13,828 nucleotides of DNA from Methanomicrobiales archaeon (GCA_037137755.1 JBAXJR010000054.1:1-13828); one strand, 5' to 3'; shown: positions 1 through 13,436, counted from the stretch's first letter. The notes: generated by a model from the letters alone, not told the origin. Made by a program: numbers and translations.

Positions 1-1297
1 GTCACACCCTTCGCGGGTGTGTGGATTGAAATCACAGGAAGGTGACAACCCAATGAGCCGCCGCATGTCACACCCTTCGCGGGTGTGTGGATTGAAATTT
101 CACTTCGGGGTGGTACTTCACCGGGAACCCCCGTCACACCCTTCGCGGGTGTGTGGATTGAAATATCTGAGGAAAGAACAGACCCCGAATAAAACCCAGG
201 TCACACCCTTCGCGGGTGTGTGGATTGAAATAAACCAATGGCAAGGGCGAACTATCCCGGCCCCGCCACGTCACACCCTTCGCGGGTGTGTGGATTGAAA
301 TAATTTACGCCCTCCGGAGGCATGTGGAAAAGGGCGTCACACCCTTCGCGGGTGTGTGGATTGAAATATCACGAACAGGGAAGATATTTCGACATCGAAG
401 GGTCACACCCTTCGCGGGTGTGTGGATTGAAATTCATTCGGGTTGTCTACTGAGGGCTTAAGGGACGTCACACCCTTCGCGGGTGTGTGGATTGAAATAT
501 CAGGATGATTACTATGACAAGAACAAAACCCGTCACACCCTTCGCGGGTGTGTGGATTGAAATTTACCCGTATGCTTAACAATCTGATCGGCCCATGTCA
601 CACCCTTCGCGGGTGTGTGGATTGAAATCGGAAGAAAAGGTAATCCAGACTTACACCCCGCCAGTCACACCCTTCGCGGGTGTGTGGATTGAAATAAAAC
701 GCCCAATTTGATCATTAATTAACTTTTGCGTCACACCCTTCGCGGGTGTGTGGATTGAAATGTGCAGGAGGGGTAAACAATGTCTGAAGATTCAACCAGT
801 CACACCCTTCGCGGGTGTGTGGATTGAAATAGGGCAGTACTTTTCGAGATCGCTCTACGGTTACCGTCACACCCTTCGCGGGTGTGTGGATTGAAATACA
901 GGAACCTGTGTTGGACAGGTTGGTGCAGAGGTAGTCACACCCTTCGCGGGTGTGTGGATTGAAATAGCAGGGAGAAGTGAACAATTGGCAACCCTGCGAG
1001 TCACACCCTTCGCGGGTGTGTGGATTGAAATAAAAGATGGGGCAATTATCGGTGGCTTCTCCAAAGTCACACCCTTCGCGGGTGTGTGGATTGAAATTTA
1101 TGATTATTGCCTCAATGTAATGAGGGATTAAGTCACACCCTTCGCGGGTGTGTGGATTGAAATGAGATGGAGCTTTAAGTATGCTCAAACAAATTGAGTC
1201 ACACCCTTCGCGGGTGTGTGGATTGAAATCGCTTGTGTCGCGGGAAAAGGACTTAACATATTTATGTCACACCCTTCGCGGGTGTGTGGATTGAAAT
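1..1297 (+). CRISPR. CRISPR array, 20 repeats / 19 spacers, type I-C-like repeat GTCACACCCTTCGCGGGTGTGTGGATTGAAAT
   Basis: Identical 32-bp repeats start at 1, 67, 133, 200, 270, 336, 402, 467, 532, 597, 664, 730, 799, 866, 934, 1000, 1066, 1132, 1198 and 1266. Spacers are unique and 33-38 bp. The repeat has a hairpin CACACCC-TTCGC-GGGTGTG and a 3' ATTGAAAT handle, which implies + strand transcription with the leader left of the window. The subtype is inferred from repeat shape only. Confidence 0.99.
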
Positions 1298-1340
1298 GTC
1301 CAGAAATAACGAAAAACCTGACTTCCTGTATCTGATAACT

Positions 1341-1348
1341 AAAAAAAA
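1341..1348 (-). terminator. Archaeal oligo-T terminator of the replication operon
   Basis: An A8 run (T8 on the minus strand) lies 17 nt beyond the stop codon of the last operon gene (1366). Confidence 0.6.
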
Positions 1349-1365
1349 TTCAATATCCCCCCCAT

Positions 1366-1800
1366 TCACCTCCCGATAAACAACGCCCCCTTCCTATTCC
1401 GCCCATCCAGCACAGCCAAAACCGATCGCAAAGGAACCGTGTAATAATACGGCGAAATACTAAAATTCAACGCCCTTCCCGAAGCCGATAATTTAGCAAA
1501 TCCAACTCTATTCCTAACACTCAACGTTAGAACATCCCGTTTCTCCCCATCCAGAACAGCGTCAATATCCCCGTTCAACAGGATGAATCCCCGGTCATCA
1601 ACATCCGAGTAAATCGCAAGCCCATCATGACACATCGCAATCCTGCCAACCTTCACAAACGATGAAACCTTGATCGTTTCAGTCTTCCAGCCCGGAAGTC
1701 CGGGCTCCTGGATCACCTCTGCAACCGTATCCGCTGGTTTGCCTGAAAACCCCAATAATGCCTTAAAAGCAGAAATAAACCGCAATACCATATGAAACAT
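1366..1800 (-). CDS. Hypothetical protein, 144 aa, with an internally duplicated beta-beta-beta-alpha unit (two ...AVLDG endings); possible nucleic-acid-binding protein
   Basis: TGATG overlap with the upstream gene and SD-like GGGAGTGA. The internal repeat is GFILLNGDIDAVLDG / YYTVPLRSVLAVLDG. Confidence 0.8.
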   Translation of the reverse strand: MFHMVLRFISAFKALLGFSGKPADTVAEVIQEPGLPGWKTETIKVSSFVKVGRIAMCHDGLAIYSDVDDRGFILLNGDIDAVLDGEKRDVLTLSVRNRVGFAKLSASGRALNFSISPYYYTVPLRSVLAVLDGRNRKGALFIGR

Positions 1801-2048
1801 CAGGTCACTCCCTTCGATATCGCCCGTCTCTGTGCGTTTATAGAGGCCCGTTTGGCCTCCTTTTCCTTCAGGTACCGAATCCTGCTGTTTGCAGCGATTT
1901 TATCCCGATTCCGGCGATAATAGGCCGCTCTTTGCTCCCGGTCCTTTTCCGGGTTCCGCAAACGGTACCGTTTCCACCTCGGAACAACCTTTTTCCGGTG
2001 TTTCGCGATCGCGAGAGCGGTCCGGAGGGTAACCGTGCAGGTCGTCAT
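1800..2048 (-). CDS. Small, highly basic helical protein, 82 aa; probable DNA-binding protein
   Basis: ATGA overlap with the primase-helicase stop and SD-like GGGGGTG/GGAGG. It has an Arg/Lys-rich 14-aa periodic motif (YRLRNPEKDREQRAAYYRRNRDKIAANSRIRY) of the kind common in viral proteins. Confidence 0.75.
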   Translation of the reverse strand: MTTCTVTLRTALAIAKHRKKVVPRWKRYRLRNPEKDREQRAAYYRRNRDKIAANSRIRYLKEKEAKRASINAQRRAISKGVT

Positions 2049-5000
2049 CCTCCTGCACCCCCTTCAGCAGACCCGGCAGCCCCGGGCTTTTCCCGGTCGT
2101 AACACTGCTGGCAGATGCTCGTTCCGGCTGAATGGTCACGGTACACGGCCTTTCCGAGGTTGCATACCTGGCACCGGCCGATATCATTTGAGATCCTCAC
2201 CATCCTGCCAATCGCAAGGATACCCGGCAGGGGAGGACCCTCATCCTGTTCCCGCTTCCGTGCCGTTTTGTAACAGGAGCTGCAGATCCGGCGGGCGGTT
2301 TTATCGGCCCTGGCCTTTCGTTCCGGGGTTAGTTTCTCGATGTACTCAGTACCTTTGTGCCCGCATGCGGAACACATGGTGTGGTATTCGGCATGGTCGA
2401 GCAACTTGTAATCCCTGCTCGATATGTGCTGCAGAGGAGGGCTGTTTGCTGCAGTTTCTGCAGGTAGGCGGCACGTGTTTCCGAAGTTATATTCAATCTG
2501 TGAAGATATTTTTAAAATCGGAGGGTTAAACGTCCGATTATCAGGTTCGTTGGAAACAATTCCCGGATCACATTCAGTCAAAGGTGCAGGCCTTTCACCT
2601 GGCGTTGGGGGTGCTGTGTCTTTTAAATTGCCGCCTTTAGTACTATTATTAATAAATATATTATTATTATACAGTCCGTTTACGGTTTCAGCACAGTGTT
2701 CTTCTTCTTTTATCTGTGCAACAGTTGTGGAAAACCTGCTTCCAACGGTTGATAGTGCCGCCTCATCGTGGATGTCATGACCGTCATGAACACGACGGTC
2801 GTCATGGTCTTCATGACCGTTATGATCGTGATGATCGGAACAGTCGTTGTCGGGGTCCAGCCATACCGAACCACCCGAAATCCAGGCACGGTATACGACG
2901 TGGTTGAACTGGTAGACACGGGCATGACGCCTGACACCCTGGCCGATCTCGTCGTCGGTTGTCACCGTCCGGTCCATGAAACTGATCGCAGGACACTTGT
3001 CGAGGAGCCCCGAGTACTGGGTATCCCTGCACTTGTACCCGTGAATGAGCTTGTACACGTAACTGTACGAGATCCCGGTCAATTCCATCATCTGCTGGAT
3101 CGTCAGCTCGGTCCGGCCGTCCTTCGCAAATGCCGTAACCAGGTCAGACTCCCGCCTGGTCAGCTTCGTCTCCTGGCCACCAACGGTCCCGTTCAGCATT
3201 CGGAACAGGCGGGCGGCTGCTTCGAAATCGGCGAGCGTTGCCTCGATAAATGGGCTGCCGCCATCGTGGCAGTGCTGTTCCCGCTGCATGAAGAAGAGGG
3301 CGGCATGGGCCTTGATCAGTGAATAGAACATCTCCGGGTTCCTGCGGTTCGTCTTCGTCTGGAACCCGATACGGCGGGCGAACGGGATGGAAACATGGAC
3401 CCGCTCGTTCCCGATAATTTCCCACATCGCCCGGCAGGTGAGGACTTCCGGCCGGACCGAGTTCGAGAGGCCCGGCGGTTCCTCCTCTTTCTTCGCCATG
3501 TCTTCGAGGACGCTCGCGTCCTGCTCGGGTGAATCGTCGATCCAGCAGGTGAGCATCCGGTTGAATACCTGGTCGTCCCCCGAGCCTTCGACCTTCGCGA
3601 CCCACCAGAGACAACGCTCCGGTATCCGGCACACGACCGCCTTCCGGTCCTTGCTCACCGTCCGGTAGATGATCGGTTTTTTGAACGACGACGTGGAACC
3701 TTTCAGGATCTCCTGCATCTCCTCGGAGAGGTTCTTGTCGTCGAAGACGATCACGGTCCCTGGCTTCATGTCGTCCTTGTAGAAGAGGAACTTGTTCGAC
3801 ATCGCCCCCTCCAGCTTCACCTGCTCCGGGACCTGCAGGAGGATCTTGTTGAACGTGTCGCTCTTGCCCTTTCCGCTCTCGCCGCTGACCGAGACATGGA
3901 GGCCGTTCGTGTTCTCGACCGACCGGGACGCTAAGCTCATGACCAGGCATTCGGCAGGGATTTCGTCGCCGACATGGTCGAGCGAGAAGGTGGTGAGCAT
4001 CGCCTTCAGCGGGTTGCCGTGTTGCAGAACGGCCATCGCCTCATCGTAATGGGAAAGGGTGGTAAGGTTCGGTGCTGGTAACGGGGTGCCCGGTCCCGGT
4101 GGCCCGGGAAGTGGGGGTGGCTTGTTGACGCTCACCGTCCTCTTCCGGTCTCTCCCCGGTTCAAATTTCTGCCGCAGTTCCGGCCACCGCTGGGTCCCGC
4201 CACCGCACGAGCTGTGATGGCATCCGGCGTAAATCGCTCCGCTGGGGAACTGGATCGCAAACGAACCGTCCTTGTGAGCTCCCGAGAACGGGCACTCTGA
4301 AAGGGTGAACAGGACGCCACCCTGGTACGGTTTCTCATCGGCGATGCCGATCGCATGGTCCCGGAGCCAGCGCCCGAGGTCGATCCCCTGGCCGGCCGGG
4401 GATGTCTTTTTCTCACCCGTTTCCGTGATCGGCTTTGTTGCCCCGGCCAGTTGTGTGAGTTGTTCCCTTGATACCCGCACGATGCGACCGGGAACTGATA
4501 CAAGCTTCGAACGGCGATGGGGCCGGGCCTTCGTGCTGTCGCCCTTCCTGCTCACCGTCCCGTACAGCTTCCATATCCTCGATGCATTGTGGTTTGCCGT
4601 GTCGACCGTCCTCGATGTGTCGTTGAACAACAACGCGAGCGCTTCAAGGCCCCGCTTTACGAGGTCCGTGCTCTCCGCGTCGTTCGGCAGGTCGATGGCA
4701 TACAGGAGGTGAGCACCGTTCCCGCTGTCGCCGAAAACCGGTTCCGGCCACCCTTCGTCGGTAAGGTACCGGGCGATCCGTGCCGCCTTGTCAAGAGCAG
4801 CCGAATGTTCCGCATCGCTCGATGAAACACCCGATACCCGGACCGCATCGATATCGACCGGAAACCACCGCCTTCTCGTGATATTCTCATCACCGGTTGT
4901 CGGGTCCTTCTTCCCGAGCCTCATCCTGACCCGGTTCGATGACCGGGCAAGCAGGGCCGGGTCGAGTTCGTTCAGGGTTACATAAATCCCTTGGGGACTT

Positions 5001-5149
5001 GCCCCTTCCACTTTTTCCGCGTCGCTCGCGAGCCGTTCCATGTCATTGTAATACCCTGATGCAATGGTATCTCCGAAGAGGGCCCGGAGTTCAACGACCT
5101 GCCCGGTATCGAAGAGGAGATCGAGAGCATCCGCTACCTGGTTATCCAT
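2045..5149 (-). CDS. AEP-superfamily primase-polymerase fused to a Zn finger, AAA+/P-loop helicase, HTH and two C-terminal Cys4 Zn fingers (MGE replication protein), 1034 aa
   Basis: AEP motifs are DID (4847-4855), DSGNGAH (4709-4729) and D-x3-N-x-SRIWKLYGT. These are followed by a CPFSGAH...CHHSSC Zn finger and a Pro-rich linker. The ATPase has Walker A GESGKGKS (3860-3883), Walker B VIVFDD, a candidate Arg finger FNRML and a sensor-2-like RRN. Next come an HTH-like TIQQMMELTGISYSYVYKLI and the C-terminal CSAC/CSSC and CQVC/CQQC pairs. SD GAGGT precedes the start. Confidence 0.9.
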   Translation of the reverse strand: MDNQVADALDLLFDTGQVVELRALFGDTIASGYYNDMERLASDAEKVEGASPQGIYVTLNELDPALLARSSNRVRMRLGKKDPTTGDENITRRRWFPVDIDAVRVSGVSSSDAEHSAALDKAARIARYLTDEGWPEPVFGDSGNGAHLLYAIDLPNDAESTDLVKRGLEALALLFNDTSRTVDTANHNASRIWKLYGTVSRKGDSTKARPHRRSKLVSVPGRIVRVSREQLTQLAGATKPITETGEKKTSPAGQGIDLGRWLRDHAIGIADEKPYQGGVLFTLSECPFSGAHKDGSFAIQFPSGAIYAGCHHSSCGGGTQRWPELRQKFEPGRDRKRTVSVNKPPPLPGPPGPGTPLPAPNLTTLSHYDEAMAVLQHGNPLKAMLTTFSLDHVGDEIPAECLVMSLASRSVENTNGLHVSVSGESGKGKSDTFNKILLQVPEQVKLEGAMSNKFLFYKDDMKPGTVIVFDDKNLSEEMQEILKGSTSSFKKPIIYRTVSKDRKAVVCRIPERCLWWVAKVEGSGDDQVFNRMLTCWIDDSPEQDASVLEDMAKKEEEPPGLSNSVRPEVLTCRAMWEIIGNERVHVSIPFARRIGFQTKTNRRNPEMFYSLIKAHAALFFMQREQHCHDGGSPFIEATLADFEAAARLFRMLNGTVGGQETKLTRRESDLVTAFAKDGRTELTIQQMMELTGISYSYVYKLIHGYKCRDTQYSGLLDKCPAISFMDRTVTTDDEIGQGVRRHARVYQFNHVVYRAWISGGSVWLDPDNDCSDHHDHNGHEDHDDRRVHDGHDIHDEAALSTVGSRFSTTVAQIKEEEHCAETVNGLYNNNIFINNSTKGGNLKDTAPPTPGERPAPLTECDPGIVSNEPDNRTFNPPILKISSQIEYNFGNTCRLPAETAANSPPLQHISSRDYKLLDHAEYHTMCSACGHKGTEYIEKLTPERKARADKTARRICSSCYKTARKREQDEGPPLPGILAIGRMVRISNDIGRCQVCNLGKAVYRDHSAGTSICQQCYDREKPGAAGSAEGGAGG
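2765..2836 (-). repeat. Degenerate 9-bp tandem repeat encoding an (x-H-D)n His/Asp-rich tract
   Basis: Encodes DHH DHN GHE DHD DRR VHD GHD IHD; CATGA-type units recur every 9 nt. Confidence 0.75.
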
Positions 5150-5151
5150 TT

Positions 5152-5331
5152 CTACCTCTCCGGGGCAGGGTCAGGCCCGTCGATAAAGGAACAGGCCCAG
5201 GTCGATTCACCGGTTTCTGCGCATGGATACGCAGCGGCGCAATTTGCTTCCTGGCAGAGGACCATTCCCTTCGAATCGGACATGAGCGGGCATACGAGAC
5301 GCTTTACCGTCCGCCCTGTCGATTTAAACAT
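5152..5331 (-). CDS. Small Cys-rich protein, 59 aa (MFKSTGRTVKRLVCPLMSDSKGMVLCQEANCAAAYPCAETGESTWACSFIDGPDPAPER); putative Zn-binding
   Basis: Translated by hand and not in the track. It has SD GGGGTGA, overlaps the upstream micro-ORF, and stops 2 nt before the primase-helicase ATG. It contains 5 Cys. Confidence 0.7.
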   Translation of the reverse strand: MFKSTGRTVKRLVCPLMSDSKGMVLCQEANCAAAYPCAETGESTWACSFIDGPDPAPER

Positions 5332-5446
5332 GGCATTTCACCCCGGTGGACCAGGCGATATAACCGGAGTCCGGAATACTGGTGAGAAGTCCGGCAGGCT
5401 CTTTGCGACACGGGCAATCCGGAAGGGTGCAGAGTCGGACGGTCAT
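5324..5446 (-). CDS. Micro-protein, 40 aa (MTVRLCTLPDCPCRKEPAGLLTSIPDSGYIAWSTGVKCHV)
   Basis: Translated by hand. TGATG coupling to the 103-aa gene, SD-like AGGGGT, and an overlap with the next start; it exactly fills the operon gap. Confidence 0.55.
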   Translation of the reverse strand: MTVRLCTLPDCPCRKEPAGLLTSIPDSGYIAWSTGVKCHV

Positions 5447-5757
5447 CAGAGGGGACCCCTGTACGCGATCCGCTCCATCCCGCACTCTGTTATCTCTCCC
5501 CGGTAAAGGGCCGCGATAGTTTCCCGCGGGACCAGCCAGGCATTGTTCAGGACGGAAATCACAACACCCTCGTTATGAGGGTGCTGGAACACTGATGCCT
5601 CGACATCGGCATTACCATGTTCCAGCCTGAGCGGTACTTCCTTCCGGAAGACAAGAAGGGTAACGATGTCAGCCGGTGCAAGGTAAAAGGTCCCTGCTCC
5701 GGAACGTATGCGGATCCGGCCTTCGCTCCATGCACACATGGAATCACCGGTTTGCAT
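5446..5757 (-). CDS. Hypothetical protein, 103 aa, with a two-unit beta-beta-beta-alpha pattern similar to 1366-1800
   Basis: Strong SD GGAGGGG, coupled at both ends. The units are GRIRIRSGAGTFYLAPADIVTLL and GVVISVLNNAWLVPRETIAALYRG. Confidence 0.8.
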   Translation of the reverse strand: MQTGDSMCAWSEGRIRIRSGAGTFYLAPADIVTLLVFRKEVPLRLEHGNADVEASVFQHPHNEGVVISVLNNAWLVPRETIAALYRGEITECGMERIAYRGPL

Positions 5758-5875
5758 GAGCCCCTCCGATCACAATTATTTTACCGTCAGAATTTTCATT
5801 AGATAATTGCTCCTTCTGTTTTCGTACTGTCGAAGGTATTGATAGGGGGGAGCATTCTACTTCTGTGCGGGACAT
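5744..5875 (-). CDS. Micro-protein, 43 aa (MSRTEVECSP...GGAHANR); shorter start within track ORF 5744..5959
   Basis: SD-like AAGGTG before the ATG at 5875; overlaps both neighbours. Confidence 0.45.
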   Translation of the reverse strand: MSRTEVECSPLSIPSTVRKQKEQLSNENSDGKIIVIGGAHANR

Positions 5876-6000
5876 ACGGCACCTTGTTTTATGATGTTCC
5901 GGATGGCAATCTCTTCGAAGGACCGACCGATCCATACGAACCGTTTTGTGGGTTCGCATAAGCCGGTTGCTTCCTGTGCAACGAGTATTTTTCTTTTCAT
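5857..6000 (-). CDS. Micro-protein, 47 aa (MKRKILVAQEATGLCEPTKRFVWIGRSFEEIAIRNIIKQGAVCPAQK); probable first gene of the operon
   Basis: Translated by hand. Weak SD CAGGA; its 3' end overlaps the start at 5875. Confidence 0.45.
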   Translation of the reverse strand: MKRKILVAQEATGLCEPTKRFVWIGRSFEEIAIRNIIKQGAVCPAQK

Positions 6001-6134
6001 GCGAATTTCCTGCCGTTTCACGATTTTGTTTAGTCGGGTACGGCGTTACTTCGTAGGAGTCTGGAGATATTAAAATATGGCATTGGTTAGCCCAATAAAA
6101 CAGATTTTAAAAGGTTGAATCGCGAAACGGAGAG

Positions 6135-6142
6135 TTATATAA
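6135..6142. promoter_or_regulatory. Palindromic TATA box TTATATAA, potentially bidirectional
   Basis: Archaeal TATA consensus located between the minus-strand operon and the hairpin-rich non-coding region. Confidence 0.45.
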
Positions 6143-6737
6143 GGGTATGGCGTGTGCAGTGTGAAAGTGAAGCGAGCGGATGTGGTGCAGTGAGGTAACG
6201 TGGCTTATGAAGGTTACTAAATTTGGGGAGGTGTAAACCTCCCGGCTCCTTCTATTGCCCCTTTTCCGTGGGGCATTTACTATTCTGTTACGAATCGGTA
6301 TCAACAATAGGGGAGACCTCGCCGTAGGAAAAAAAATGGGAAGACGAGGCAACCTCCCAGCTGGGAGAGAGAGAAACTGTGAACGATGGTTCGGAAAAAC
6401 GGGGTCAGCGGAAATATTTACCCATCCCTCTGTTTCGGTTATTCTCTATAATGCTCCAGAATTGTCCTTTGATGTAATATTCAACCCTTATTTTTGCCTG
6501 GTCCATAAAAAATTCCAGGTACTACTAAATTTAATGCCATTATTGTCATCATTTTCAGATTTAGGTCAGTTGTATGAAGAATGATAGCAAAAACATCAAA
6601 GATTCCAGGAAGTACAAAAAGCATCGCAGGATTTCGGAAAAATGAGTAAAAAATAGCATTGGGTGATTATTATATCTCTCGCATGTGGGAAAATCGGACA
6701 TGACTAAAATTAGCCATTTCCTTGACCTATGGCTTAA

Positions 6738-6829
6738 TTTGGTGGCCAAAAGAAAGGTGTGTACCATATCTCACTTGTTTTGGTACACAACTCTGTTACG
6801 TTTGATTTGGTGTACAATTTGGTACGCAA
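6738..6829. repeat. Cluster of five 12-bp TTTGGT-NNN-CAA-type motifs (4 direct, 1 inverted)
   Basis: TTTGGTGGCCAA 6738-6749; inverted TATGGTACACAC 6757-6768; TTTGGTACACAA 6779-6790; TTTGGTGTACAA 6806-6817; TTTGGTACGCAA 6818-6829. Confidence 0.8.
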
Positions 6830-6879
6830 AAAGCCAGGATGCGAGAAATGTCCTGCTGCCCCCCAACCTTACCCAATGC

Positions 6880-6886
6880 TTTATAA
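6880..6886 (+). promoter_or_regulatory. Putative TATA box of the SnoaL-like gene
   Basis: TTTATAA about 80 nt upstream of the ATG at 6964. Confidence 0.45.
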
Positions 6887-6963
6887 TGTCCTACGTGGAG
6901 TTCCCGATCAGTGTACGGGATCCATGGGCAGCTCCGGTTCCTGGTATACCAGGAGAATCTGAC

Positions 6964-7401
6964 ATGTCAACTGTTGAGGAAAATATGCGTCTTATGCAGA
7001 CGCTTGATGATGCATGGAATTCCCAGGACTGGGAAACATTTAATAAACGCCACGCAGCCGAGGTCGATGTATTCTGGCCAGGGCAGGCAGATCCGACCCA
7101 TAGCCGGCATAATCATAAGGAAGAGGCAGTAGCATTTTTTAAAATTTTCCCGGATAATAAAGTGGGAAACAGGCCTTACAAGATATTTTTCGGTCAGGGA
7201 GATTACACCTGTTCGGTTGCCGATTTCACCGGGACTTTCAAGGGCCCGATGACTGCTCCGGACGGCAAGGTAATCCCGCCGAATGGCAAGAAATTCAAGG
7301 TAGATTTTTGCACGGTCGCCCATTGGAAAAATGGTGAGATCGTCGAGGAGAAACTCTTCTATGACAAGATCTCCCTGATGCAGCAGATCGGCCTGATGTG
7401 A
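6964..7401 (+). CDS. SnoaL-like / ester cyclase (NTF2-fold) protein, 145 aa
   Basis: LDDAWNSQDW...FPD...FGQGDY...FTGTFKGP...IPPNGKKFKVDFCTVAHWKNGEIVEE is a typical SnoaL-family pattern. SD AGGAG precedes ATG 6964, so the track start at 6685 is too long. Confidence 0.9.
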   Translation: MSTVEENMRLMQTLDDAWNSQDWETFNKRHAAEVDVFWPGQADPTHSRHNHKEEAVAFFKIFPDNKVGNRPYKIFFGQGDYTCSVADFTGTFKGPMTAPDGKVIPPNGKKFKVDFCTVAHWKNGEIVEEKLFYDKISLMQQIGLM

Positions 7402-7423
7402 GAATCCACATCAATAACACAGC

Positions 7424-7430
7424 TTTTTTT
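7424..7430 (+). terminator. Oligo-T terminator candidate
   Basis: T7 run 22 nt after the SnoaL-like stop codon. Confidence 0.45.
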
Positions 7431-7470
7431 AGTAACTGACACTAAAAACGGATAAAGGAAAAGAATTGTT

Positions 7471-8172
7471 ATGGAAGGAAAAAACGAAAATCCCGGTGAT
7501 GCAGGGAAGAATTCAATGAAGATCACCGTGAGCAAAAACGGCCCCTTTATCGTATCAGGCGGGGTCCCACTCATCCAGGAGGAGATTTGCAATGATGAGG
7601 AGGGTTACTGCCGGAACTGGCGGGAGGCAAAGAAGTTTCCTGTCCAGGAGCAGTATGCACTTTGCAGGTGCGGACATTCTAATAACAAGCCCTTCTGTGA
7701 CGGGACGCATGCGAAGGTCCACTTTGAAGGCACAGAAACTGCAGGGAACGAATCATATCTCCGCCACCCGAAGATCATAAAGGGACCTGAACTGGAACTG
7801 GCTGATTACGAAGGTCTCTGTGTCCATGCACGGTTCTGCATGCGGGCAGGTGGGATCTGGAATCTCACGGAACAGTCCGATATACCCGATGCGAAGAAAA
7901 CTGCAATAGAAGAGGCGTGCAATTGTCCATCCGGCCGGCTTGTGATTCGCGACCGGAAGACCGGAGAAACGATTGAACCGGAACTGGAAAAGTCCATCGT
8001 CATCATCGAGTATCCTGCACGTGGGGAGCATGGACCTCTATGGGTGCGTGGCGGTATCCCTGTCGTGTCATCCGATGGGAAAGTGTACACCATCAGGAAC
8101 CGGGTCACACTCTGCCGGTGCGGGAAATCATGGAATAAACCATTTTGCGACGGGAGCCACGTGGAACGGTAA
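7471..8172 (+). CDS. CDGSH iron-sulfur domain protein (two CDGSH domains flanking a divergent ferredoxin-like domain)
   Basis: LCRCGHSNNKPFCDGTH and LCRCGKSWNKPFCDGSH, with central CVHARFC...CPSGRL. Confidence 0.93.
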   Translation: MEGKNENPGDAGKNSMKITVSKNGPFIVSGGVPLIQEEICNDEEGYCRNWREAKKFPVQEQYALCRCGHSNNKPFCDGTHAKVHFEGTETAGNESYLRHPKIIKGPELELADYEGLCVHARFCMRAGGIWNLTEQSDIPDAKKTAIEEACNCPSGRLVIRDRKTGETIEPELEKSIVIIEYPARGEHGPLWVRGGIPVVSSDGKVYTIRNRVTLCRCGKSWNKPFCDGSHVER

Positions 8173-8254
8173 TTGCTATACGATTCGGAGAGTATGGATT
8201 GAACAAGAGATCCAGGAATTGGGTGGTCGGATGACAGGGAAAATGAGGTAGAAT

Positions 8255-8731
8255 ATGGCACTTACCGACGCACAAAACCTGTTCACCTTATTTTTCGCTA
8301 TTTATTTTGGTATGATGGTAGGTCGCTCCCATGAAATGTACAGGCCATGGGACACCTACCATGCCTGGAAGGGAAGGTCTCAAAATATCAGGCGCCTGGT
8401 TACGGCATGGATAATTTTATTTATCCTTCCACTCTTTCAATTTGCAGTCTTATTTGCCCTTCTTGGTTCTGTTTATATCCCATTCGATTTTACGATGGCC
8501 GGCATTGCCAATATTGTCCTGATCGGGTTCGGTTCGTTTTTCGAATTCGGATATTTCAGGATTTACGAGGCGTTCCTGCACAGTTATCCGGAATCGTTTT
8601 TTTCGGATGAAGAATTATCAGAGATGAAGGAATCGGGCAAAATCCACCCTGGATTTTGGGCACACTTTATGCCCGGGGTATTATATGTAATCCTCTCAAT
8701 TATGGCGGTGCTCATCGCAATTTATTATTGA
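8255..8731 (+). CDS. Hypothetical integral membrane protein, about 4 TM helices
   Basis: SD GAGGT and four long hydrophobic segments. Confidence 0.85.
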   Translation: MALTDAQNLFTLFFAIYFGMMVGRSHEMYRPWDTYHAWKGRSQNIRRLVTAWIILFILPLFQFAVLFALLGSVYIPFDFTMAGIANIVLIGFGSFFEFGYFRIYEAFLHSYPESFFSDEELSEMKESGKIHPGFWAHFMPGVLYVILSIMAVLIAIYY

Positions 8732-8819
8732 CCCGATTGAAAATCAAGCCAGTGTCTTAATAAAAAGATAAAAGGATGAAGATTGGCCCTCTCCGGAATC
8801 AGATCCGGCAGATGGCCCG

Positions 8820-9437
8820 TTATTGCATGCCAAGCCCAATCATCGCACCATACTTCGAATATACTTCCTTTACCAGTTCACCCGATTTCGGGTTCGCCCA
8901 GTCGTGCATCCATTCCGATACCAGTGATTCAACCGTGATCGGGATTACTCCTGCCTGGAGCATCCGTTTGATCCCGTACTTGTGGGCAGCACAGGTCGAG
9001 TCTCCGGCGGCATCTACCAGTCCGTATACTTCATACCCGTCCTTCAACGCATGGAGAGCCGTATAAGCAAAGCACATACTCGTCCAGAGCCCGGATACCA
9101 CCAATTTCCTGCGTCCTGTTTTCTTAAAGGCATTGTAGACCGGTTCATCTTCAAACGCATCGAAACTGAGTATCGTCCGTGAGAACACTTCCTGTTTTGG
9201 AAATATCCTCGTAATATCTCCAATGAATTCCCCGTTTCTCTGTGGTCCGATTGTTGTTAGTATAACAGGGATATCAAGGATACTGGCGGCCTTTGCAGCA
9301 CAGGTGGCAGCAGCCCGGATGAGGACCTTGTCCCCGGAGGCGACACCTGCAAACATTGCAGGCTGGTAGTCAACAAGCACGAGGGCACTATTCTTATCGC
9401 TCAACAATTCGAATTTTCCATCGTTTGGATTTACCAT
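8820..9437 (-). CDS. Isochorismatase-family cysteine hydrolase (YcaC-like)
   Basis: ALVLVDYQP, IPVILT, GRRKLVVSGLWTSMC (catalytic Cys), GYEVY..VDAAG, RMLQAGVIP, EWMHDW; SD AGGGAG. Confidence 0.92.
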   Translation of the reverse strand: MVNPNDGKFELLSDKNSALVLVDYQPAMFAGVASGDKVLIRAAATCAAKAASILDIPVILTTIGPQRNGEFIGDITRIFPKQEVFSRTILSFDAFEDEPVYNAFKKTGRRKLVVSGLWTSMCFAYTALHALKDGYEVYGLVDAAGDSTCAAHKYGIKRMLQAGVIPITVESLVSEWMHDWANPKSGELVKEVYSKYGAMIGLGMQ

Positions 9438-9546
9438 TGTTTAAGTCTCCCTTAATGATATCTGGATCTCCCATACTACCTCTATAGATATTCGGGTATC
9501 CACGAATCTGTAGCCAGAGAAGAAAAAATGAAATATTGCAAGATAA

Positions 9547-9951
9547 TTATTTTTCTGTTGGTTTTCCGTCGAAATGCTCTTCCTTATCGATGGCTTCCTG
9601 CTTCGTCTTCCGCACAACCTTGTCCAAGTGCTCCGGCGGGGAGTATATTGTGTACAGTTTGAGATTTTTGGTGGCGGAAGTGTTGATTACGTTGTGTTTC
9701 GCGCCGGATGGCACTATTACACCGCTGCCATCTTTCACGACGTGCCGGGTGGCATCGATCACAACAACTCCCTCACCCTCTTCGAAGCGGAAGAACTGGT
9801 CAACGTCGTCATGTGTTTCCTCACCGATATCCTCCTTCGGTTTGAGGCACATCAGGACCAGCTGACTGTATTTTCCCGTATACAGTACCCTGCGGAAATC
9901 CGTGTTCTTTTTTGTTACTTCTTCAAGATTGTCTGCAAAACCTTTCTTCAT
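9547..9951 (-). CDS. Cupin domain protein
   Basis: SQLVLMCLKPKEDIGEETHDDVDQFFRFEEGEG...VPSGAKHNVIN...LKLYTIYSPPEH; SD GAGGTGA. Confidence 0.93.
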   Translation of the reverse strand: MKKGFADNLEEVTKKNTDFRRVLYTGKYSQLVLMCLKPKEDIGEETHDDVDQFFRFEEGEGVVVIDATRHVVKDGSGVIVPSGAKHNVINTSATKNLKLYTIYSPPEHLDKVVRKTKQEAIDKEEHFDGKPTEK

Positions 9952-10108
9952 TTTTCTTCACCTCTTATGTATCCTGATAAATTCTCCATGTAACCGTTCT
10001 GTCAGTTTCATACTCTACGCCACAAATGAGGCACATTCTGCCCGGAACTATACCGTCGAAGTACCGGGTAAATGATCCCATCGGGCTTATGCTATCAGAT
10101 TCCTAACG

Positions 10109-10414
10109 TTATATCTTGGTGACTTTATCCATTTTCAGCACTTTCTTGGCGACAATGAAGACGACCAGTGCGACAATGACAAAGTAAATCAGGTCTGAAA
10201 GGAACGGGCCCCATCCGATTGCGAAGGGACCAATATGGGCTACTGCCGTTTTCCAATCCCCGCCGGGAATTATTACCGCGATGATTGGCATAATCAGGTT
10301 ATCTACAAAAGATTTGACAAGGGCTGATGCAGCGACACCTATTATGAAGGCAATCGCGAGACCGATGATCTTATACTCCTGCAGAAATTCCATAAACTCA
10401 GACATAAAACTCAT
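10109..10414 (-). CDS. mscL: Large-conductance mechanosensitive channel MscL family
   Basis: EFMEFLQEYKIIGLAIAFIIGVAASALVKSFVDNLIMPII...WGPFLSDLIYFVIVALVVFIV. The likely start is ATG 10414 rather than 10456. Confidence 0.92.
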   Translation of the reverse strand: MSFMSEFMEFLQEYKIIGLAIAFIIGVAASALVKSFVDNLIMPIIAVIIPGGDWKTAVAHIGPFAIGWGPFLSDLIYFVIVALVVFIVAKKVLKMDKVTKI

Positions 10415-10656
10415 CTTCTTCACATCCTGTATAGGTTGTAAATATTTTTCAGACACGATAAAATGATAGGATTGTTCAGGCGTATTATGAGGCCATATGA
10501 AAACTGCTCTCTATGATTTTCCAGGTTACCCGAACATAAATGCTCGATGAGATATGGTGAATTGCCCACAATTTCATAATAATTTCCTCTTACCCCAAAT
10601 TCAGAGGGATATCTATATCGTTCATAAGATCCACTATCTGCCTGAGGTAACATAGC

Positions 10657-10890
10657 ATGGTAAATATCGGAGGACTAGGCGGAATTATAAGTGGCGGACT
10701 CAGCTCTCCCGAAGGGAAGGAACAAATAATGAAATTTCTTACATCCCCGGAAGGAATGGCAATGATCCAGCAGTTTATTGGAAGTCCCGAGGGAAAACCT
10801 CTTGCGGGGCAACTTCTGATGCCGATACTGGGGAATCTCGGGGTTCCTGAAACGGTTTCACAACCGTTACAGCAGTACCTCCCCAAATAA
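10657..10890 (+). CDS. Small hypothetical protein, 77 aa, with three 12-aa SPEG helical repeats
   Basis: SD GAGGT; LSSPEGKEQIMK / FLTSPEGMAMIQQ / FIGSPEGKPLAG; T-rich tract after the stop. Confidence 0.8.
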   Translation: MVNIGGLGGIISGGLSSPEGKEQIMKFLTSPEGMAMIQQFIGSPEGKPLAGQLLMPILGNLGVPETVSQPLQQYLPK

Positions 10891-11190
10891 TTGAATTTCT
10901 GTTTTTTCTATAATACGGAATATTAAGTATTTCCGTTAAAATTGTGCAATCGTTTTTTTCGAAATGTTCAGCCTGATCCATGGTAAGTACCATTCCTATA
11001 CACGGAATTGCCCTTTGCTTCCTCATTCTAAACGTTGCGAAGACTATTACAGAAAAACAATGAGCTAGGCCAGCCACCCAAAAAAAATACAGAAACAGAA
11101 AATCGTCGCACCCAGGTGAGTGAAAGCAAAGGAGTGGCTGGCGTTAGTGGAGGTGTCACAACGGATACTCTTGTTTGAGTGTTTTCATTC

Positions 11191-11889: not shown

Positions 11890-12055
11890 TATAGAAAATC
11901 CTCAACTAATTCTTTATCTTGGGTATGCTGTCTGATAATATATTGTTTCATTTCTTCCCGAACACCTTTCTCTTCTCAACCCTGCTTTCTACTCTTGCTA
12001 TGCAATTCCTTGAAATGAGTCTTAAGATCATTTCCCTGGTAATCCGGGGAGAAAA

Positions 12056-12814
12056 TCAGGTAGATGAGGTAAACGAGCTCCACCTAACCCTTCCATTCAC
12101 CCCAAATGCCCCACCAGCCCCGATCTGCTCGTGCACAGCATGAACATATCCGAGAGCTGAAGTATTCCCGATGCCCGTCAGAGACCGCGATCCAGCAGAG
12201 AACTGGCCCGAGCCGTGACCGGTTGCCTCCATGTTCATCAGCATATTATCCGGTTGCCCGGTGTCACCCTGGCTGATCTCACCAGCCGAATGGTAATTCA
12301 AAGCATCAGTCATGAACATCGTTGAAACCCCTGCGTATTCGCAATAGGCCTGGCGAGTAAGGTTTGCTCCCTCTGCATCGAGTGAGTCAGATCCGCAAGT
12401 AACACCTGCAGCCGGTGACCCGACTGAGTAAACCATAAGCGACTCAGTTAAAATCCCTGGCCCCTGGCTGTCCACCTGCTGACCTGTCGAGAACTCAAGA
12501 GTATCATCCGCCGACAAAGACCTATCTCCTGAGTACGTCACAGGACCGTTCACCAGGACTGATCCTGAATATCCACCACTAAGTACCTCCGGACTGATTC
12601 CAAGCGGAGGAACCTTAGTCATATCCCCGTCCGAAGCCATCCACGACCATTCCGAAGAGCTCGACAATCCTTGATCTCCACTTGCCGATATCGCCACCTC
12701 GCAAGAGGCAGCCTGGGCCGGGGTAATCCCGGTACACGCCACCCCGAGCACAACGGCAGCGAAAATGCAACCGCCAATGACCAGCTTTCTCCGCTGCATC
12801 AGTCGCTTAATCAT
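12056..12814 (-). CDS. Predicted secreted/surface protein, 252 aa, Ser/Gly/Thr-rich
   Basis: Basic N-terminus, hydrophobic core and an AQA-A cleavage-like site; ATGA overlap with the upstream gene. Confidence 0.85.
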   Translation of the reverse strand: MIKRLMQRRKLVIGGCIFAAVVLGVACTGITPAQAASCEVAISASGDQGLSSSSEWSWMASDGDMTKVPPLGISPEVLSGGYSGSVLVNGPVTYSGDRSLSADDTLEFSTGQQVDSQGPGILTESLMVYSVGSPAAGVTCGSDSLDAEGANLTRQAYCEYAGVSTMFMTDALNYHSAGEISQGDTGQPDNMLMNMEATGHGSGQFSAGSRSLTGIGNTSALGYVHAVHEQIGAGGAFGVNGRVRWSSFTSST

Positions 12815-13203
12815 GTCGCCTCTGTCTTTCCTGATCCCTTGATGAGCCCGTATTCAATATCATACCAGGTAGATGGGACGGTAATCGTGTAGGTGTCAAG
12901 CCTCTCCGCTTCAGCCTCCGCCACCTGCCGGAGCAGGCTTTCCTGCTCGATCGGCGAATGGTCGAATGTGAGCCACCGCTTCGTGCTGTCGGTCATCTTG
13001 TACGATCGGCCCGGGACCTCTGATGGTGCAGATGTCACCGTATCGTCAGTCGGGTCAAAGTAGCTCAGTACCTGGCTGGTTGTTGCAGATGCAGCGTTTG
13101 CCGAAACTGTCGCTTTCGTCGCTCTCGTGTGCTGCATGTATGCGATGAACGCAGCAGCAAGCGTAATCAGAATCTCAATGAGGTTGGTTAATTCCGGATC
13201 CAT
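12811..13203 (-). CDS. Hypothetical protein with an N-terminal membrane anchor, 130 aa
   Basis: SD AAGGAG; TM segment LIEILITLAAAFIAYM followed by a soluble domain. Confidence 0.85.
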   Translation of the reverse strand: MDPELTNLIEILITLAAAFIAYMQHTRATKATVSANAASATTSQVLSYFDPTDDTVTSAPSEVPGRSYKMTDSTKRWLTFDHSPIEQESLLRQVAEAEAERLDTYTITVPSTWYDIEYGLIKGSGKTEAT

Positions 13204-13357
13204 GATGTTCTCCTTTTATTTTCTCATGCTCCGCACGCAGGGCCTCGAACTCCGCACAAATTACCTCATACTTCCCGATTTTCTCATAAATCAAGAAAAG
13301 CGAAGGGTAAAGCGGAAGTACGACGCCGAGGATAAGGGCCGTAGTTTCAATATCCAT
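13175..13357 (-). CDS. Small membrane protein (TM helix plus coiled coil), 60 aa
   Basis: Strong SD GAGGAGGT; TM ALILGVVLPLYPSLFLIY; overlaps the next gene's start. Confidence 0.75.
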   Translation of the reverse strand: MDIETTALILGVVLPLYPSLFLIYEKIGKYEVICAEFEALRAEHEKIKGEHHGSGINQPH

Positions 13358-13436
13358 AGTGGACCTCCTCGAACAGGGAGGCCGAGAATAGAAGGAGCAG
13401 GGATTAGGTCCGGCTCTCCCGTGTTCAATTAGCTGT

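What the first reader, a model, noticed from the sequence alone, without database searches (positions are those of the whole stretch)
1..6830. Primase-helicase replicon directly abutting an intact CRISPR array
Seen: a complete, coupled replication operon ends 68 bp from the last repeat and is transcribed toward the array. No cas gene, integrase or transposase is in the window. Three readings are possible (inference). (a) The element carries its own array for competition between elements, using host Cascade. (b) The element integrated at the array's distal end. (c) It is a CRISPR-associated primase-helicase analogous to CRISPR-associated Prim-Pols (CAPP), which are AEPs encoded near cas1/cas2. 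I consider (c) least likely, because the operon looks like a standard MGE replicon.
Basis: partly seen in the sequence, partly recalled or inferred. Interest (0 to 1): 0.8.

Follow-up and report, generated by a model that had tools for sequence, protein, structure and literature searches.

The report
Integrated replicon beside ordinary CRISPR array end
A small integrated mobile element that encodes a fused primase-helicase sits next to the old end of a normal chromosomal CRISPR array in a methanogen genome; they look like neighbours in a variable genome island rather than parts of one system.

Summary
The window has 20 identical 32-nt repeats at 1-1297. After a 68-bp gap comes a translationally coupled minus-strand operon (p71, p103, p59, a 1034-aa protein, p82, p144) that reads toward the array.

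The array does not belong to the element. The window is a whole contig. The same repeat runs off the end of contig C42 of the same Methanoregulaceae MAG, directly after a complete type I-C cas operon and its leader. Contigs from independent metagenomes join that leader and a C42 spacer to repeats of the window. The window therefore holds the trailer end of a chromosomal I-C array.

The 1034-aa protein has no hit in the local Pfam, PHROG or NCBIfam libraries. Its predicted fold is an AEP prim-pol (Z 16.8), a zinc-binding domain, an MCM-type AAA+ core (Z 22.4), a winged helix and C-terminal zinc ribbons. The element spans about 1366-6296 and has no integrase. Related copies usually carry tRNA-integrase modules. 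The genome holds four full and several partial paralogs.

Adjacency to CRISPR is not the rule: 8 of 160 relatives have cas genes or arrays within 10 kb, and 0 of 20 related I-C loci have the element after the array. There is a modest enrichment (15 of 145 copies within 15 kb of cas1, against 2-4 expected). The CAPP-like and element-borne-array readings are rejected.

The parts
1..1297 (+). Trailer (promoter-distal) part of a chromosomal type I-C CRISPR array: 20 identical 32-nt repeats and 19 spacers. It is cut by the contig start. The leader-proximal part (11 repeats), the leader and the cas3-cas5c-cas8c-cas7-cas4-cas1-cas2 operon lie on contig C42.
99..132 (+). Spacer 2. It matches 33 of 34 nt inside a PLP-dependent decarboxylase gene of the same MAG (C43:10284-10317). 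The 5' flank of the protospacer is GAC.
1298..1365 (.). 68-bp junction between the last repeat and the p144 stop codon. It has no degenerate repeat and no homology to other element copies or to the trailer flanks of relatives. On the operon strand it carries T8 and T5 runs.
1366..1800 (-). p144, the last gene of the element; function unknown. Homology among copies ends at its stop codon, which marks the right end of the element. Solo remnants of its 3' end are scattered in the genome.
1800..2048 (-). p82, a small basic protein. Its only profile hit is a weak match to phrog_17714 (E 1.1e-4). It is multi-copy in the genome and present in 14 of 160 related loci.
2045..5149 (-). 1034-aa replication protein: AEP prim-pol, zinc-binding domain, MCM-like AAA+ core, winged helix, disordered His/Asp-rich linker, and four CxxC zinc ribbons.
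4442..5149 (-). AEP primase-polymerase domain (aa 1-236). D99, D101, H147 and D183 are invariant in the family alignment.
   Evidence: 6zp9: Z 16.8, rmsd 2.5, 173 aa aligned
4157..4393 (-). Zinc-binding domain (aa 253-331), weakly similar to the Twinkle and DnaG-type zinc-binding domains. C286, H292, C310, H312 and C315 are invariant.
   Evidence: Z 5.5-5.7
3155..4087 (-). MCM-type AAA+ ATPase core (aa 355-665). The Walker A motif is G423-S430 and the Walker B motif ends at D470-D471.
   Evidence: 8w0f_E: Z 22.4, rmsd 3.4, 275 aa aligned
2078..3154 (-). Winged-helix region (aa 666-765), low-confidence linker (aa 769-905) and C-terminal zinc ribbons (aa 906-1024; invariant C926/C929, C956/C959, C993/C996, C1013/C1016).
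5152..5959 (-). Three small upstream ORFs (p59 5152-5331, p103 5446-5757, p71 5744-5959). None has a family hit. p59 and p103 have homologs upstream of paralogous copies.
5960..6296 (.). Non-coding left arm of the element, with two short hairpins. Homology with the copies in L010 and L105, which lie in another context, starts at about 6296.
6297..6843 (.). AT-rich stretch that could not be assigned. It is not shared with other element copies and is not syntenic with relatives.
6844..10923 (.). Chromosomal block (SnoaL-like, CDGSH iron-sulfur, membrane protein, isochorismatase, cupin, MscL). It is 90-91% identical to same-genus genome G003, contig C134.

Best explanation
The window joins two accessory features of a Methanoregulaceae genome that work independently.

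(1) The array is the oldest (trailer) end of an ordinary, active chromosomal type I-C CRISPR array. Its cas operon, leader and newest spacers lie on another contig.

(2) Next to it lies an integrated element of about 4.9 kb (about 1366-6296). It belongs to a family that is very common in Methanomicrobiales. Its core gene is a fused AEP prim-pol / MCM-like helicase, which by inference primes and unwinds the element's own DNA for plasmid-like replication. This copy belongs to a sub-lineage without its own integrase. By inference it either depends on integrases of related elements, as a satellite would, or is immobile.

The two are neighbours because both sit in a variable island that has long been a landing site for such elements. 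No step of CRISPR function is inferred to need the element. The element does not own the array.

Shown: the locus architecture, the protein folds, the multiple copies, the different contexts, and the absence of the element at related I-C loci.
Inferred: replication function, mobilisation in trans, and lack of functional coupling.
For: Array identity. The window is the whole contig C54. The same repeat occurs 11 times at C42:19071-19769 and runs to that contig's end. It is preceded by a 151-nt leader and by cas3, cas5c, cas8c, cas7, cas4, cas1 and cas2, whose I-C-specific NCBIfam models score above their cut-offs. In Logan contigs of runs X1 and X5 the C42 leader is joined directly to the window repeats at 664 and 799. 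In X5 C42 spacer 9 is joined to the repeat at 1132.

Protein. The N-terminal domain model has pLDDT 85.9. It gives Z 16.8 to the S-2L PrimPol, 13.6 to RepB' and 13.0 to PriS. The AAA+ core gives Z 22.4 to MCM, and Foldseek gives E 6e-9. Catalytic-type residues, Walker motifs and cysteine pairs are invariant in the alignment.

Mobility. The genome holds paralogs at 64%, 50% and 48% identity plus partial copies. 581 of 595 pattern-matched stretches in species-representative genomes and 448 of 592 in metagenomes encode a relative. The profile of the N-terminal domain matches in 88 of 151 genomes of the order. An 84%-identical DNA copy with the same two ends lies between unrelated flanks in L010 and L105. 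62 of 160 loci carry a tyrosine integrase upstream on the same strand, and 27 of 160 have a tRNA gene within 6 kb upstream.

No coupling. 8 of 160 loci have a cas gene or an array within the fetched flanks. None of 20 related I-C loci has an element protein after the array, and 1 of 19 has one upstream. The G012 I-C locus has no element after its trailer. None of 29 spacers matches any of the 160 related loci beyond 15 nt.

Hot spot. Orthology with same-genus genomes ends at C42:~1568-1596. A remnant of the p144 3' end follows there, both in this genome and in G003.

Single copy. Contig depth over the element is about equal to the flanks, and no excision or circle joint was seen in 4 runs.
Against: Co-localisation exceeds a uniform expectation. 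I cross-read by hand the listed rows. 15 of 145 prim-pol copies lie within 15 kb of a listed cas1. My arithmetic from 292 cas1 matches in 151 genomes of about 2.3 Mb gives an expectation of 2-4.

Five further independent copies lie within 2 kb of an array trailer end. Three of them (L241, L243, L247) have the window's geometry, and they involve three CRISPR repeat types.

A 13.2-kb block holding a prim-pol element plus a cas locus is 95.6% identical between MAGs assigned to different families. Its left border lies 1.1 kb upstream of the prim-pol gene.

The I-C locus of this genome lies between a full p144 and a p144 3' remnant on the same strand.

No att repeats or target duplication were found, so the way this copy integrated is unknown. 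Replication activity is untested.
Confidence: 0.65

Rival explanations
1. Composite mobile island: the I-C CRISPR-Cas locus is cargo of, or hitch-hikes with, prim-pol elements. The replicon and the whole CRISPR-Cas locus would then move together as an integrated plasmid-like unit.
For: The I-C cas4-cas1-cas2 region was found in only 1 of 12 same-genus genomes. The locus is bracketed by a full p144 (window 1366-1800) and a same-strand p144 3' remnant at C42:9265-9333. In L236 and L237 a prim-pol element and a cas locus share a 13.2-kb block at 95.6% identity between MAGs of different families, and L238 keeps the same order at 69-76% identity. 15 of 145 copies lie within 15 kb of cas1.
Against: G012 has the orthologous I-C locus without the element. 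None of 20 related I-C loci has it downstream and only 1 of 19 has it upstream; no p144 remnant was found in those 19 upstream stretches. The element occurs with the same ends but without any cas genes in L010 and L105. The two p144 copies are only about 82% identical, with no identical core. G003 has p144 remnants at the same chromosomal site without the I-C locus. Wrong binning of contigs could explain the 95.6% block.
Confidence: 0.15
2. Targeted insertion: elements of this family prefer the borders of CRISPR loci, especially trailer ends, as integration sites.
For: Independent trailer-adjacent copies exist: L068 (= G040), L064 (= L183), G088:C11, G043:C15 and G068:C1. G132:C7 lies 1.2 kb from the cas3 start. 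A precedent exists for a mobile element aimed at CRISPR repeats: Tn7-like transposons in cyanobacteria (PMC11837452; I saw only the title and the start of the abstract).
Against: Orientation differs between cases (3' side in 4, 5' side in 2). Distances vary from 68 bp to about 0.7 kb. No shared junction sequence was found. Canonical members sit next to tRNA genes together with their own integrase. About 95% of copies are not near CRISPR loci.
Confidence: 0.1
3. The element carries its own array and uses the host's Cascade to compete with other elements.
For: Only the physical adjacency and the fact that the last repeat is perfect.
Against: The array continues the cas-linked C42 array. Element homology ends at the p144 stop codon. 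No spacer matches related elements. A perfect terminal repeat occurs in 5 of 15 related I-C arrays, so it is not informative.
Confidence: 0.02
4. A CRISPR-associated prim-pol that serves adaptation, like CAPP.
For: The AEP fold also resembles the CAPP prim-pol domain (7nqd: Z 11.1, rmsd 4.6, 181 aa aligned).
Against: CAPPs are described as lying in the operon with cas1-cas2, mostly in type III systems (PMC8211822, passages read). Here the gene lies at the trailer end, converges on the array, belongs to a multi-copy element family, and is usually far from any cas gene. Other AEPs give closer structural matches.
Confidence: 0.02

Closest known systems
Small integrated elements with the arCOG07809 prim-pol protein (e.g. 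Mpal_2033 of Methanosphaerula palustris); Makarova et al. 2014, PMC4158269 (passages read)
   Same: The host group is Methanomicrobia. The elements are small islands. The core protein is described as primase + helicase + HTH + Zn finger. Some copies carry integrases and have defined integration sites, and homologs lacking the primase domain exist. This genome has such helicase-only homologs on C30 and C45.
   Different: Membership was not tested by sequence, because I had no reference sequence. The paper calls the ATPase a superfamily I helicase or DnaA-like AAA; here the fold is MCM-like. I did not identify the associated PD-(D/E)xK nuclease (arCOG09441). The paper's figure and supplements were not seen.
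BcMCM, the primase-MCM fusion of a Bacillus cereus prophage (PMC3273815; title and start of abstract only)
   Same: An AEP primase domain fused to an MCM-type helicase and encoded by an integrated mobile element.
   Different: The host here is an archaeon. The protein has extra parts: a zinc-binding domain between the two modules, a winged helix and four C-terminal CxxC ribbons. No sequence similarity was tested.
ORF904 of plasmid pRN1 (prim-pol + SF3 helicase + winged helix)
   Same: A single multidomain replication protein on a small archaeal plasmid or integrative element, with the same order of functions.
   Different: The structural match of the prim-pol domain is weak (1ro2: Z 6.9). The helicase here is MCM-type AAA+, not SF3.
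CRISPR-associated Prim-Pols (CAPP), PMC8211822
   Same: AEP fold (Z 11.1) and physical nearness to a CRISPR locus.
   Different: There is no operon link with cas1-cas2. The system is type I-C rather than type III. The gene belongs to a mobile-element family. See the membership test.
Type I-C CRISPR-Cas loci
   Same: Gene order cas3-cas5c-cas8c-cas7-cas4-cas1-cas2, then leader, then an array of 32-nt repeats. Twenty related loci in the order have the same layout.
   Different: Nothing unusual was found. The only point is that all 31 assembled repeats are identical, including the last one, which is also true of 5 of 15 related arrays.
Tn7-like transposons that target CRISPR repeats (PMC11837452; title and start of abstract only)
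   Same: A mobile element repeatedly found at CRISPR arrays.
   Different: The mobility machinery is different, and here there is no evidence for insertion at a defined position relative to a repeat.

Membership tests
Type I-C CRISPR-Cas array | Adjacent I-C signature genes (Cas8c/Csd1, Cas5c, Cas7/Csd2, Cas1c) | tested here: met
   On C42, bit scores against curated cut-offs are: TIGR01863 464.6 (218.65), TIGR01876 178.4 (85), TIGR02589 340.7 (182.25), TIGR03640 488 (385).
Type I-C CRISPR-Cas array | The window's array is the same array as the one next to cas2 and the leader | tested here: met
   The repeat and strand are identical at the C42 end and the C54 start. Metagenome contigs join the C42 leader and a C42 spacer to window repeats.
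AEP (archaeo-eukaryotic primase / prim-pol) superfamily | AEP catalytic fold | tested here: met
   6zp9 Z 16.8 (rmsd 2.5, 173 aa); 3h20 Z 13.6; 1v33 Z 13.0. The model has pLDDT 85.9.
AEP (archaeo-eukaryotic primase / prim-pol) superfamily | Conserved acidic and histidine catalytic motifs | tested here: inconclusive
   D99, D101, H147 and D183 are invariant in 33 sequences. Assigning them to motifs I-III is my inference; they were not superposed on a solved active site.
AEP (archaeo-eukaryotic primase / prim-pol) superfamily | Primase or polymerase activity | not testable with these tools
   Needs biochemistry.
MCM-family AAA+ helicase | MCM-type AAA+ core fold with Walker A and B motifs | tested here: met
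   8w0f_E Z 22.4 (rmsd 3.4, 275 aa, model residues 358-666). The archaeal MCMs 6mii and 4r7y give Z 21.2-21.8. G423-S430 and D470-D471 are invariant or nearly so.
MCM-family AAA+ helicase | N-terminal OB-fold/zinc domain of cellular MCM | tested here: inconclusive
   All MCM alignments cover only model residues about 351-760. The N-terminus is a prim-pol plus a zinc-binding domain. MCM-specific hairpins and the arginine finger were not examined.
arCOG07809 (Mpal_2033-like) integrated elements | Four-domain protein: primase, helicase, HTH, Zn finger | tested here: met
   compared with the description read.
arCOG07809 (Mpal_2033-like) integrated elements | Sequence membership in the arCOG | not tested
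   No arCOG profile or reference sequence was available. The precomputed label PF27228 is absent from the local Pfam copy and from the paper library.
CAPP (CRISPR-associated Prim-Pol) | Location in the operon with cas1-cas2 | tested here: not met
   The gene lies beyond the trailer end and converges on the array, while cas1 lies at the other end of the array on C42. 152 of 160 homolog loci have no cas gene or array in the fetched flanks.
Array carried by a mobile element | The array lies inside the element's borders | tested here: not met
   Homology between element copies ends at the p144 stop codon. The array is continuous with the chromosomal cas locus.
tRNA-targeting integrative element with tyrosine integrase (the canonical form of this family) | Own integrase and a flanking tRNA gene | tested here: not met
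   The window has no integrase and no remnant of one (best E 0.49). There is no tRNA gene on C54. Relatives have them: 62 of 160 loci carry an integrase and 27 of 160 a tRNA gene.

The most novel reading that the evidence does not exclude
Prim-pol/MCM elements of Methanomicrobiales and CRISPR-Cas loci are physically linked more often than chance allows because they travel or settle together. Either CRISPR-Cas modules ride as cargo on these plasmid-like replicons, which would explain their patchy distribution, or the elements home to the borders of CRISPR loci. The window would be one instance. Its I-C locus would then lie between a full p144 and a p144 3'-end scar.
Probability: 0.2. Interest if true: 0.65.

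Novelty: new member of a known kind. Interest (0 to 1): 0.38.

Why it matters
As a single locus this is ordinary: a normal I-C array next to an integrated element. Two things may be useful.

First, a very large protein family, labelled "hypothetical" in every named hit among the 120 listed, gets a fold-based domain map. More than 2000 protein clusters matched, and the N-terminal domain occurs in 88 of 151 sampled genomes of the order. The map is prim-pol, zinc-binding domain, MCM-like helicase, winged helix and zinc ribbons. An integrase-less sub-lineage with defined ends also emerges.

Second, these elements are found near CRISPR-Cas loci about 4-8 times more often than a uniform model predicts, including several copies directly at trailer ends. 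If this survives a proper census, it bears on how CRISPR-Cas loci move between archaeal genomes.

Tried and rejected
Profile and sequence searches
- Pfam, PHROGs and NCBIfam gave nothing for p1034, p144, p103, p71 and p59.
- A sequence search and a profile search of the PDB gave nothing useful.
- PF27228 is not in the local Pfam copy and appears in no paper of the library.
- The ESM Atlas search for p144 gave a best score of 0.89 with no family, so it is uninformative.

Junctions and borders
- No degenerate 21st repeat follows position 1297.
- The perfect last repeat is not evidence of truncation, because 5 of 15 related arrays also have one.
- No direct or inverted repeats mark the element's ends.
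- No integrase remnant lies in 5700-7000.
- Window 1298-1365 and 5960-6850 have no similarity to the trailer flanks of G012 or L068, or to the G003 flank. The highest z against shuffles was 2.7, with the observed score (16) below the best shuffled score (17).
- I considered the 105-nt repeat X as an attachment site. It is not present in the window and occurs in only 2 of the 160 loci, so I dropped the idea.

Spacers
- The 29 spacers gave no match above chance against the 160 related loci.
- The window's array region against the phage and plasmid collections gave only repeat-driven matches to other I-C arrays.
- Two spacers had no exact match in IMG/VR. The other 27 were not searched there.

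Mobile-element databases
- Viral contigs hold only the N-terminal prim-pol module (7 loci, 37-43% identity).
- The isolate plasmid and phage collections likewise match only the N-terminal module.

Read-level evidence
- No excision, circle or empty-site joint was seen. Only assembled contigs of 4 runs could be laid, so rare forms would be missed.

Other
- Rfam and tRNA scans of the window and two related loci found nothing.
- tRNA-derived att repeats of at least 16 nt downstream of canonical elements: none found for any of the 30 tRNA genes, in 27 loci.
- Supplements of the cited papers could not be seen. Those of PMC4158269 and PMC5862659 may list this family.


Full report
**1. What the window holds**

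The window is the whole 13,828-bp contig C54 of a 2.64-Mb MAG with 106 contigs, estimated 90.6% complete. Homologs of its proteins are named Methanoregulaceae, Methanoregula or Methanolinea.

Bases 1-1297 hold 20 identical 32-nt repeats (GTCACACCCTTCGCGGGTGTGTGGATTGAAAT) and 19 spacers. After a 68-bp gap, a minus-strand operon ends at 1366. It consists of p71, p103, p59, a 1034-aa protein, p82 and p144, with 4-nt and 1-nt overlaps at the last two junctions.

To the right lie ordinary genes: SnoaL-like, CDGSH, isochorismatase, cupin and MscL.

**2. The array belongs to the chromosome**

The same repeat occurs 11 times at the 3' end of contig C42, on the same strand, and runs to the last base of that contig. 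It is preceded by a 151-nt leader and a complete I-C operon of cas3, cas5c, cas8c, cas7, cas4, cas1 and cas2. The subtype-specific models all score above their cut-offs.

Contigs from four lake and freshwater metagenome runs were laid on the window. These runs may include the source sample.
- They bridge the last repeat into the element (X1 1268-3353; X5 1266-1689).
- They bridge the element into the SnoaL block (X1 4949-7607; X2 5865-7621; X3 4949-7285; X5 6080-7057).
- Loose ends show the C42 leader joined directly to the window repeats at 664 (X1) and 799 (X5), and C42 spacer 9 joined to the repeat at 1132 (X5).

These are population variants of a single array. They tie the window's repeats to the C42 leader and indicate that the array has been gaining or losing spacers. 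The window thus holds the trailer end. Twenty related I-C loci in the order have the same layout, and 12 of them have arrays of 65-91 repeats, so the true array here may be much longer than the 31 assembled repeats.

**3. The 1034-aa protein**

No Pfam, PHROG or NCBIfam model and no PDB sequence matches it. Its family is large. More than 2000 clusters match, every named hit among the 120 listed is labelled "hypothetical", and the hits carry a precomputed label PF27228 that I could not look up.

AlphaFold models built with family alignments show the following domains:

| Residues | Domain | Best evidence |
|---|---|---|
| 1-236 | AEP prim-pol | S-2L PrimPol Z 16.8; RepB' 13.6; PriS 13.0; CAPP 11.1; pRN1 6.9 |
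| 253-331 | small zinc-binding domain | Z 5.5-5.7, weak |
| 355-665 | MCM-type AAA+ core | Z 22.4, rmsd 3.4, 275 residues; Foldseek E 6e-9 |
| to about 760 | winged helix | |
| 769-905 | disordered, His/Asp-rich linker | |
| 906-1024 | zinc ribbons with four invariant CxxC pairs | |

D99, D101, H147 and D183 and the Walker motifs are invariant. "Primase-helicase" is therefore right, and more precisely a prim-pol/MCM-like fusion.

Makarova et al. 2014 described small integrated elements of Methanomicrobia whose protein (arCOG07809, Mpal_2033) has primase, helicase, HTH and Zn-finger domains. They proposed these as satellite-like elements (PMC4158269, passages read). This is very probably the same family, but I could not test that by sequence.

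**4. The element**

The genome holds full paralogs on C59 (64%), C58 (50%) and C10 (48%). It also holds partial copies on C101 and C11 and helicase-only relatives on C30 and C45.

Across the order, 88 of 151 genomes at least 90% complete have the N-terminal domain, with 197 matches in all. This genome has 5.

Comparison with the closest copies fixes the borders. L010 is about 84% identical in DNA and L105 about 80%. The two share one context with each other, and that context differs from the window's. Homology runs from the p144 stop codon (1366) to about 6296, where a hairpin-rich terminus begins. The element is therefore about 4.9 kb.

Synteny with the same-genus genomes G003 and G002 starts only at 6844/6873. 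That leaves 547 bp unassigned.

Canonical relatives differ from this copy. 62 of 160 loci have a roughly 400-aa tyrosine integrase 0.8-4 kb upstream on the same strand, and 27 of 160 have a tRNA gene just before it (the map of L248 is an example). The window's copy, L010 and L105 have no integrase and no remnant of one. No PF00589 match lies on C54, C59, C58 or C10, although C58's copy has its integrase on contig C63 (L122).

This is therefore an integrase-less sub-lineage with defined ends, seen in at least two contexts. I infer that it is mobilised in trans or no longer moves. No att repeats were found. Contig depth over the element is about equal to the flanks, and no excision or circle joints appeared. 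Only contigs could be laid, so this is weak evidence.

**5. Is the adjacency meaningful?**

Against a functional link:
- Among the best 80 relatives from species-representative genomes and the best 80 from metagenomes (2.19 Mb in total), true arrays lie within the fetched flanks in L026, L064, L068, L149, L175 and L183. L064 and L183 are the same locus at 99.6% identity.
- cas homologs add L024 and L028, giving 8 of 160 loci.
- The inverse test used 20 I-C loci with Cas1 55-84% identical to this genome's. None of 20 has an element protein within 20 kb downstream of cas1. One of 19 (G119) has one upstream.
- The only same-genus genome with this I-C locus (G012; 1 of 12 genomes) ends its array with a degenerate repeat and has no element there.
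- No spacer matches the 160 loci.

For some link:
- I cross-read by hand the listed rows of the order-wide cas1 and prim-pol scans. 15 of 145 listed copies outside this genome lie within 15 kb of a listed cas1.
- My arithmetic gives an expectation of about 1.9 using only the listed cas1 rows, and about 3.7 using all 292 matches in 151 genomes of about 2.3 Mb.
- Three of the 15 share one arrangement, so the events are not all independent.
- Maps of 16 loci (the 15 pairs and one at 18 kb) show copies directly at locus borders:
  - L241 is an I-C locus with the window's geometry and degenerate trailer repeats about 250 bp from the last element ORF.
  - L243 and L247 involve other CRISPR types. 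There the prim-pol gene ends 669 and 765 bp from the trailer-most repeat.
  - L235 (= L068) and L064 have the element's 5' side at the trailer.
  - In L242 the prim-pol gene starts 1.2 kb from the cas3 start.
- L236 and L237, binned in different families, share a 13.2-kb block at 95.6% identity that holds both the element and a cas locus.

**6. The local picture favours a shared hot spot**

Orthology of C42 with same-genus genomes stops at about 1568-1596. Immediately after that point lies a remnant of the p144 3' end (C42:1780-1896). G003 has p144 remnants at the same site but no I-C locus there. A second remnant (C42:9265-9333) lies 1.9 kb upstream of cas3. Further remnants lie on C10, C34, C50 and C43.

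The stretch from C42:~1600 to C54:6843 is thus a variable island. It has received such elements repeatedly and also houses PAS-domain sensor kinases and the I-C locus. This explains the adjacency without any functional coupling. It does not exclude co-transfer of CRISPR-Cas with such elements, which I keep as the main rival (0.15), or border targeting (0.1).

**7. Verdict**

The array is ordinary. The element is a new member of a poorly characterised but previously described kind.

The modest enrichment of this element family near CRISPR-Cas loci is the only part that might reward further work. It needs a census with island-aware controls before anything is built on it.

Paper supplements could not be seen.

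Noticed in passing
window 99-132; G000:C43:10284-10317: Spacer 2 matches 33 of 34 nt inside a chromosomal PLP-dependent (Orn/DAP/Arg-type) decarboxylase gene of the same MAG. The 5' flank of the protospacer is GAC, not the TTC that I recall as the I-C PAM. This looks like a tolerated self-targeting spacer.
   Followed up: partly
G000:C42:1780-1896 and 9265-9333; C10:31717-31863; C34:22413-22541; C50:3339-3491; C43:16939-17049; also L010, L046, L131: Solo remnants of the last 70-150 nt of the p144 gene occur at these places. They often lie downstream of a full copy on the same strand. The I-C locus of this genome lies between a full p144 and such a remnant. They may be scars of an attachment site or of decayed elements.
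   Followed up: partly
G000:C71:1701-1815, C45:1-104, C6:77983-78080, C93:2036-2131; L187 5033-5286; L100 10348-10558; L119 both ends: A conserved hairpin-rich repeat of about 105 nt occurs 4 times in the genome. In G012 it lies about 190 bp after the I-C trailer. In G003 it lies 16 bp beyond the synteny break next to the SnoaL block. Contig L119 has perfect 123-nt inverted ends that contain its core. It gave no Rfam or tRNA hit.
   Followed up: partly
window 12042-13828; G000:C10:27230-29168; L072 9731-11534: Three genes of unknown function (252, 130 and at least 126 aa) have paralogs at 46-91% amino-acid identity on C10, next to an Orc1/Cdc6-like gene, and a copy in L072. In each case they lie within a few kb of a prim-pol element.
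   Followed up: no
window array, variants seen in runs X1 and X5: Metagenome contigs show array variants in which the leader abuts window repeats 664 or 799, a deletion variant that joins C42 spacer 9 to repeat 1132, and unknown spacers before repeats 67 and 402. The array varies within the population.
   Followed up: partly
L049 13964-14169; L181 11963-12160: Related tandem repeats of about 100 nt (3 copies) lie about 1 kb downstream of the prim-pol gene in two distant element copies. They could be iterons of an origin.
   Followed up: no
p1034 aa 5-331 (window about 4157-5137): The prim-pol plus zinc-binding module alone has homologs on the 285-kb plasmid of Methanomethylovorans hollandica (46% identity, annotated as a HEAT repeat protein), in a Bacteroides phage (36%), in a 7.5-kb 'Bacteriophage sp.' record (31%) and in 7 IMG/VR contigs.
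   Followed up: no
L236 4320-17491 and L237 (reverse strand): A 13.2-kb block at 95.6% identity holds a prim-pol element and a non-I-C cas locus. It is shared by MAGs placed in different families, and the left flanks differ. This indicates either recent transfer or wrong binning.
   Followed up: partly
G000:C51:6-135: Three copies of a 20-mer, spaced like CRISPR repeats, lie at a contig start. This may be a second small array.
   Followed up: no
window 2762-2832 (p1034 aa about 773-796): A short His/Asp-rich low-complexity stretch, encoded by imperfect 9-nt DNA repeats, lies in the disordered linker of the replication protein.
   Followed up: no
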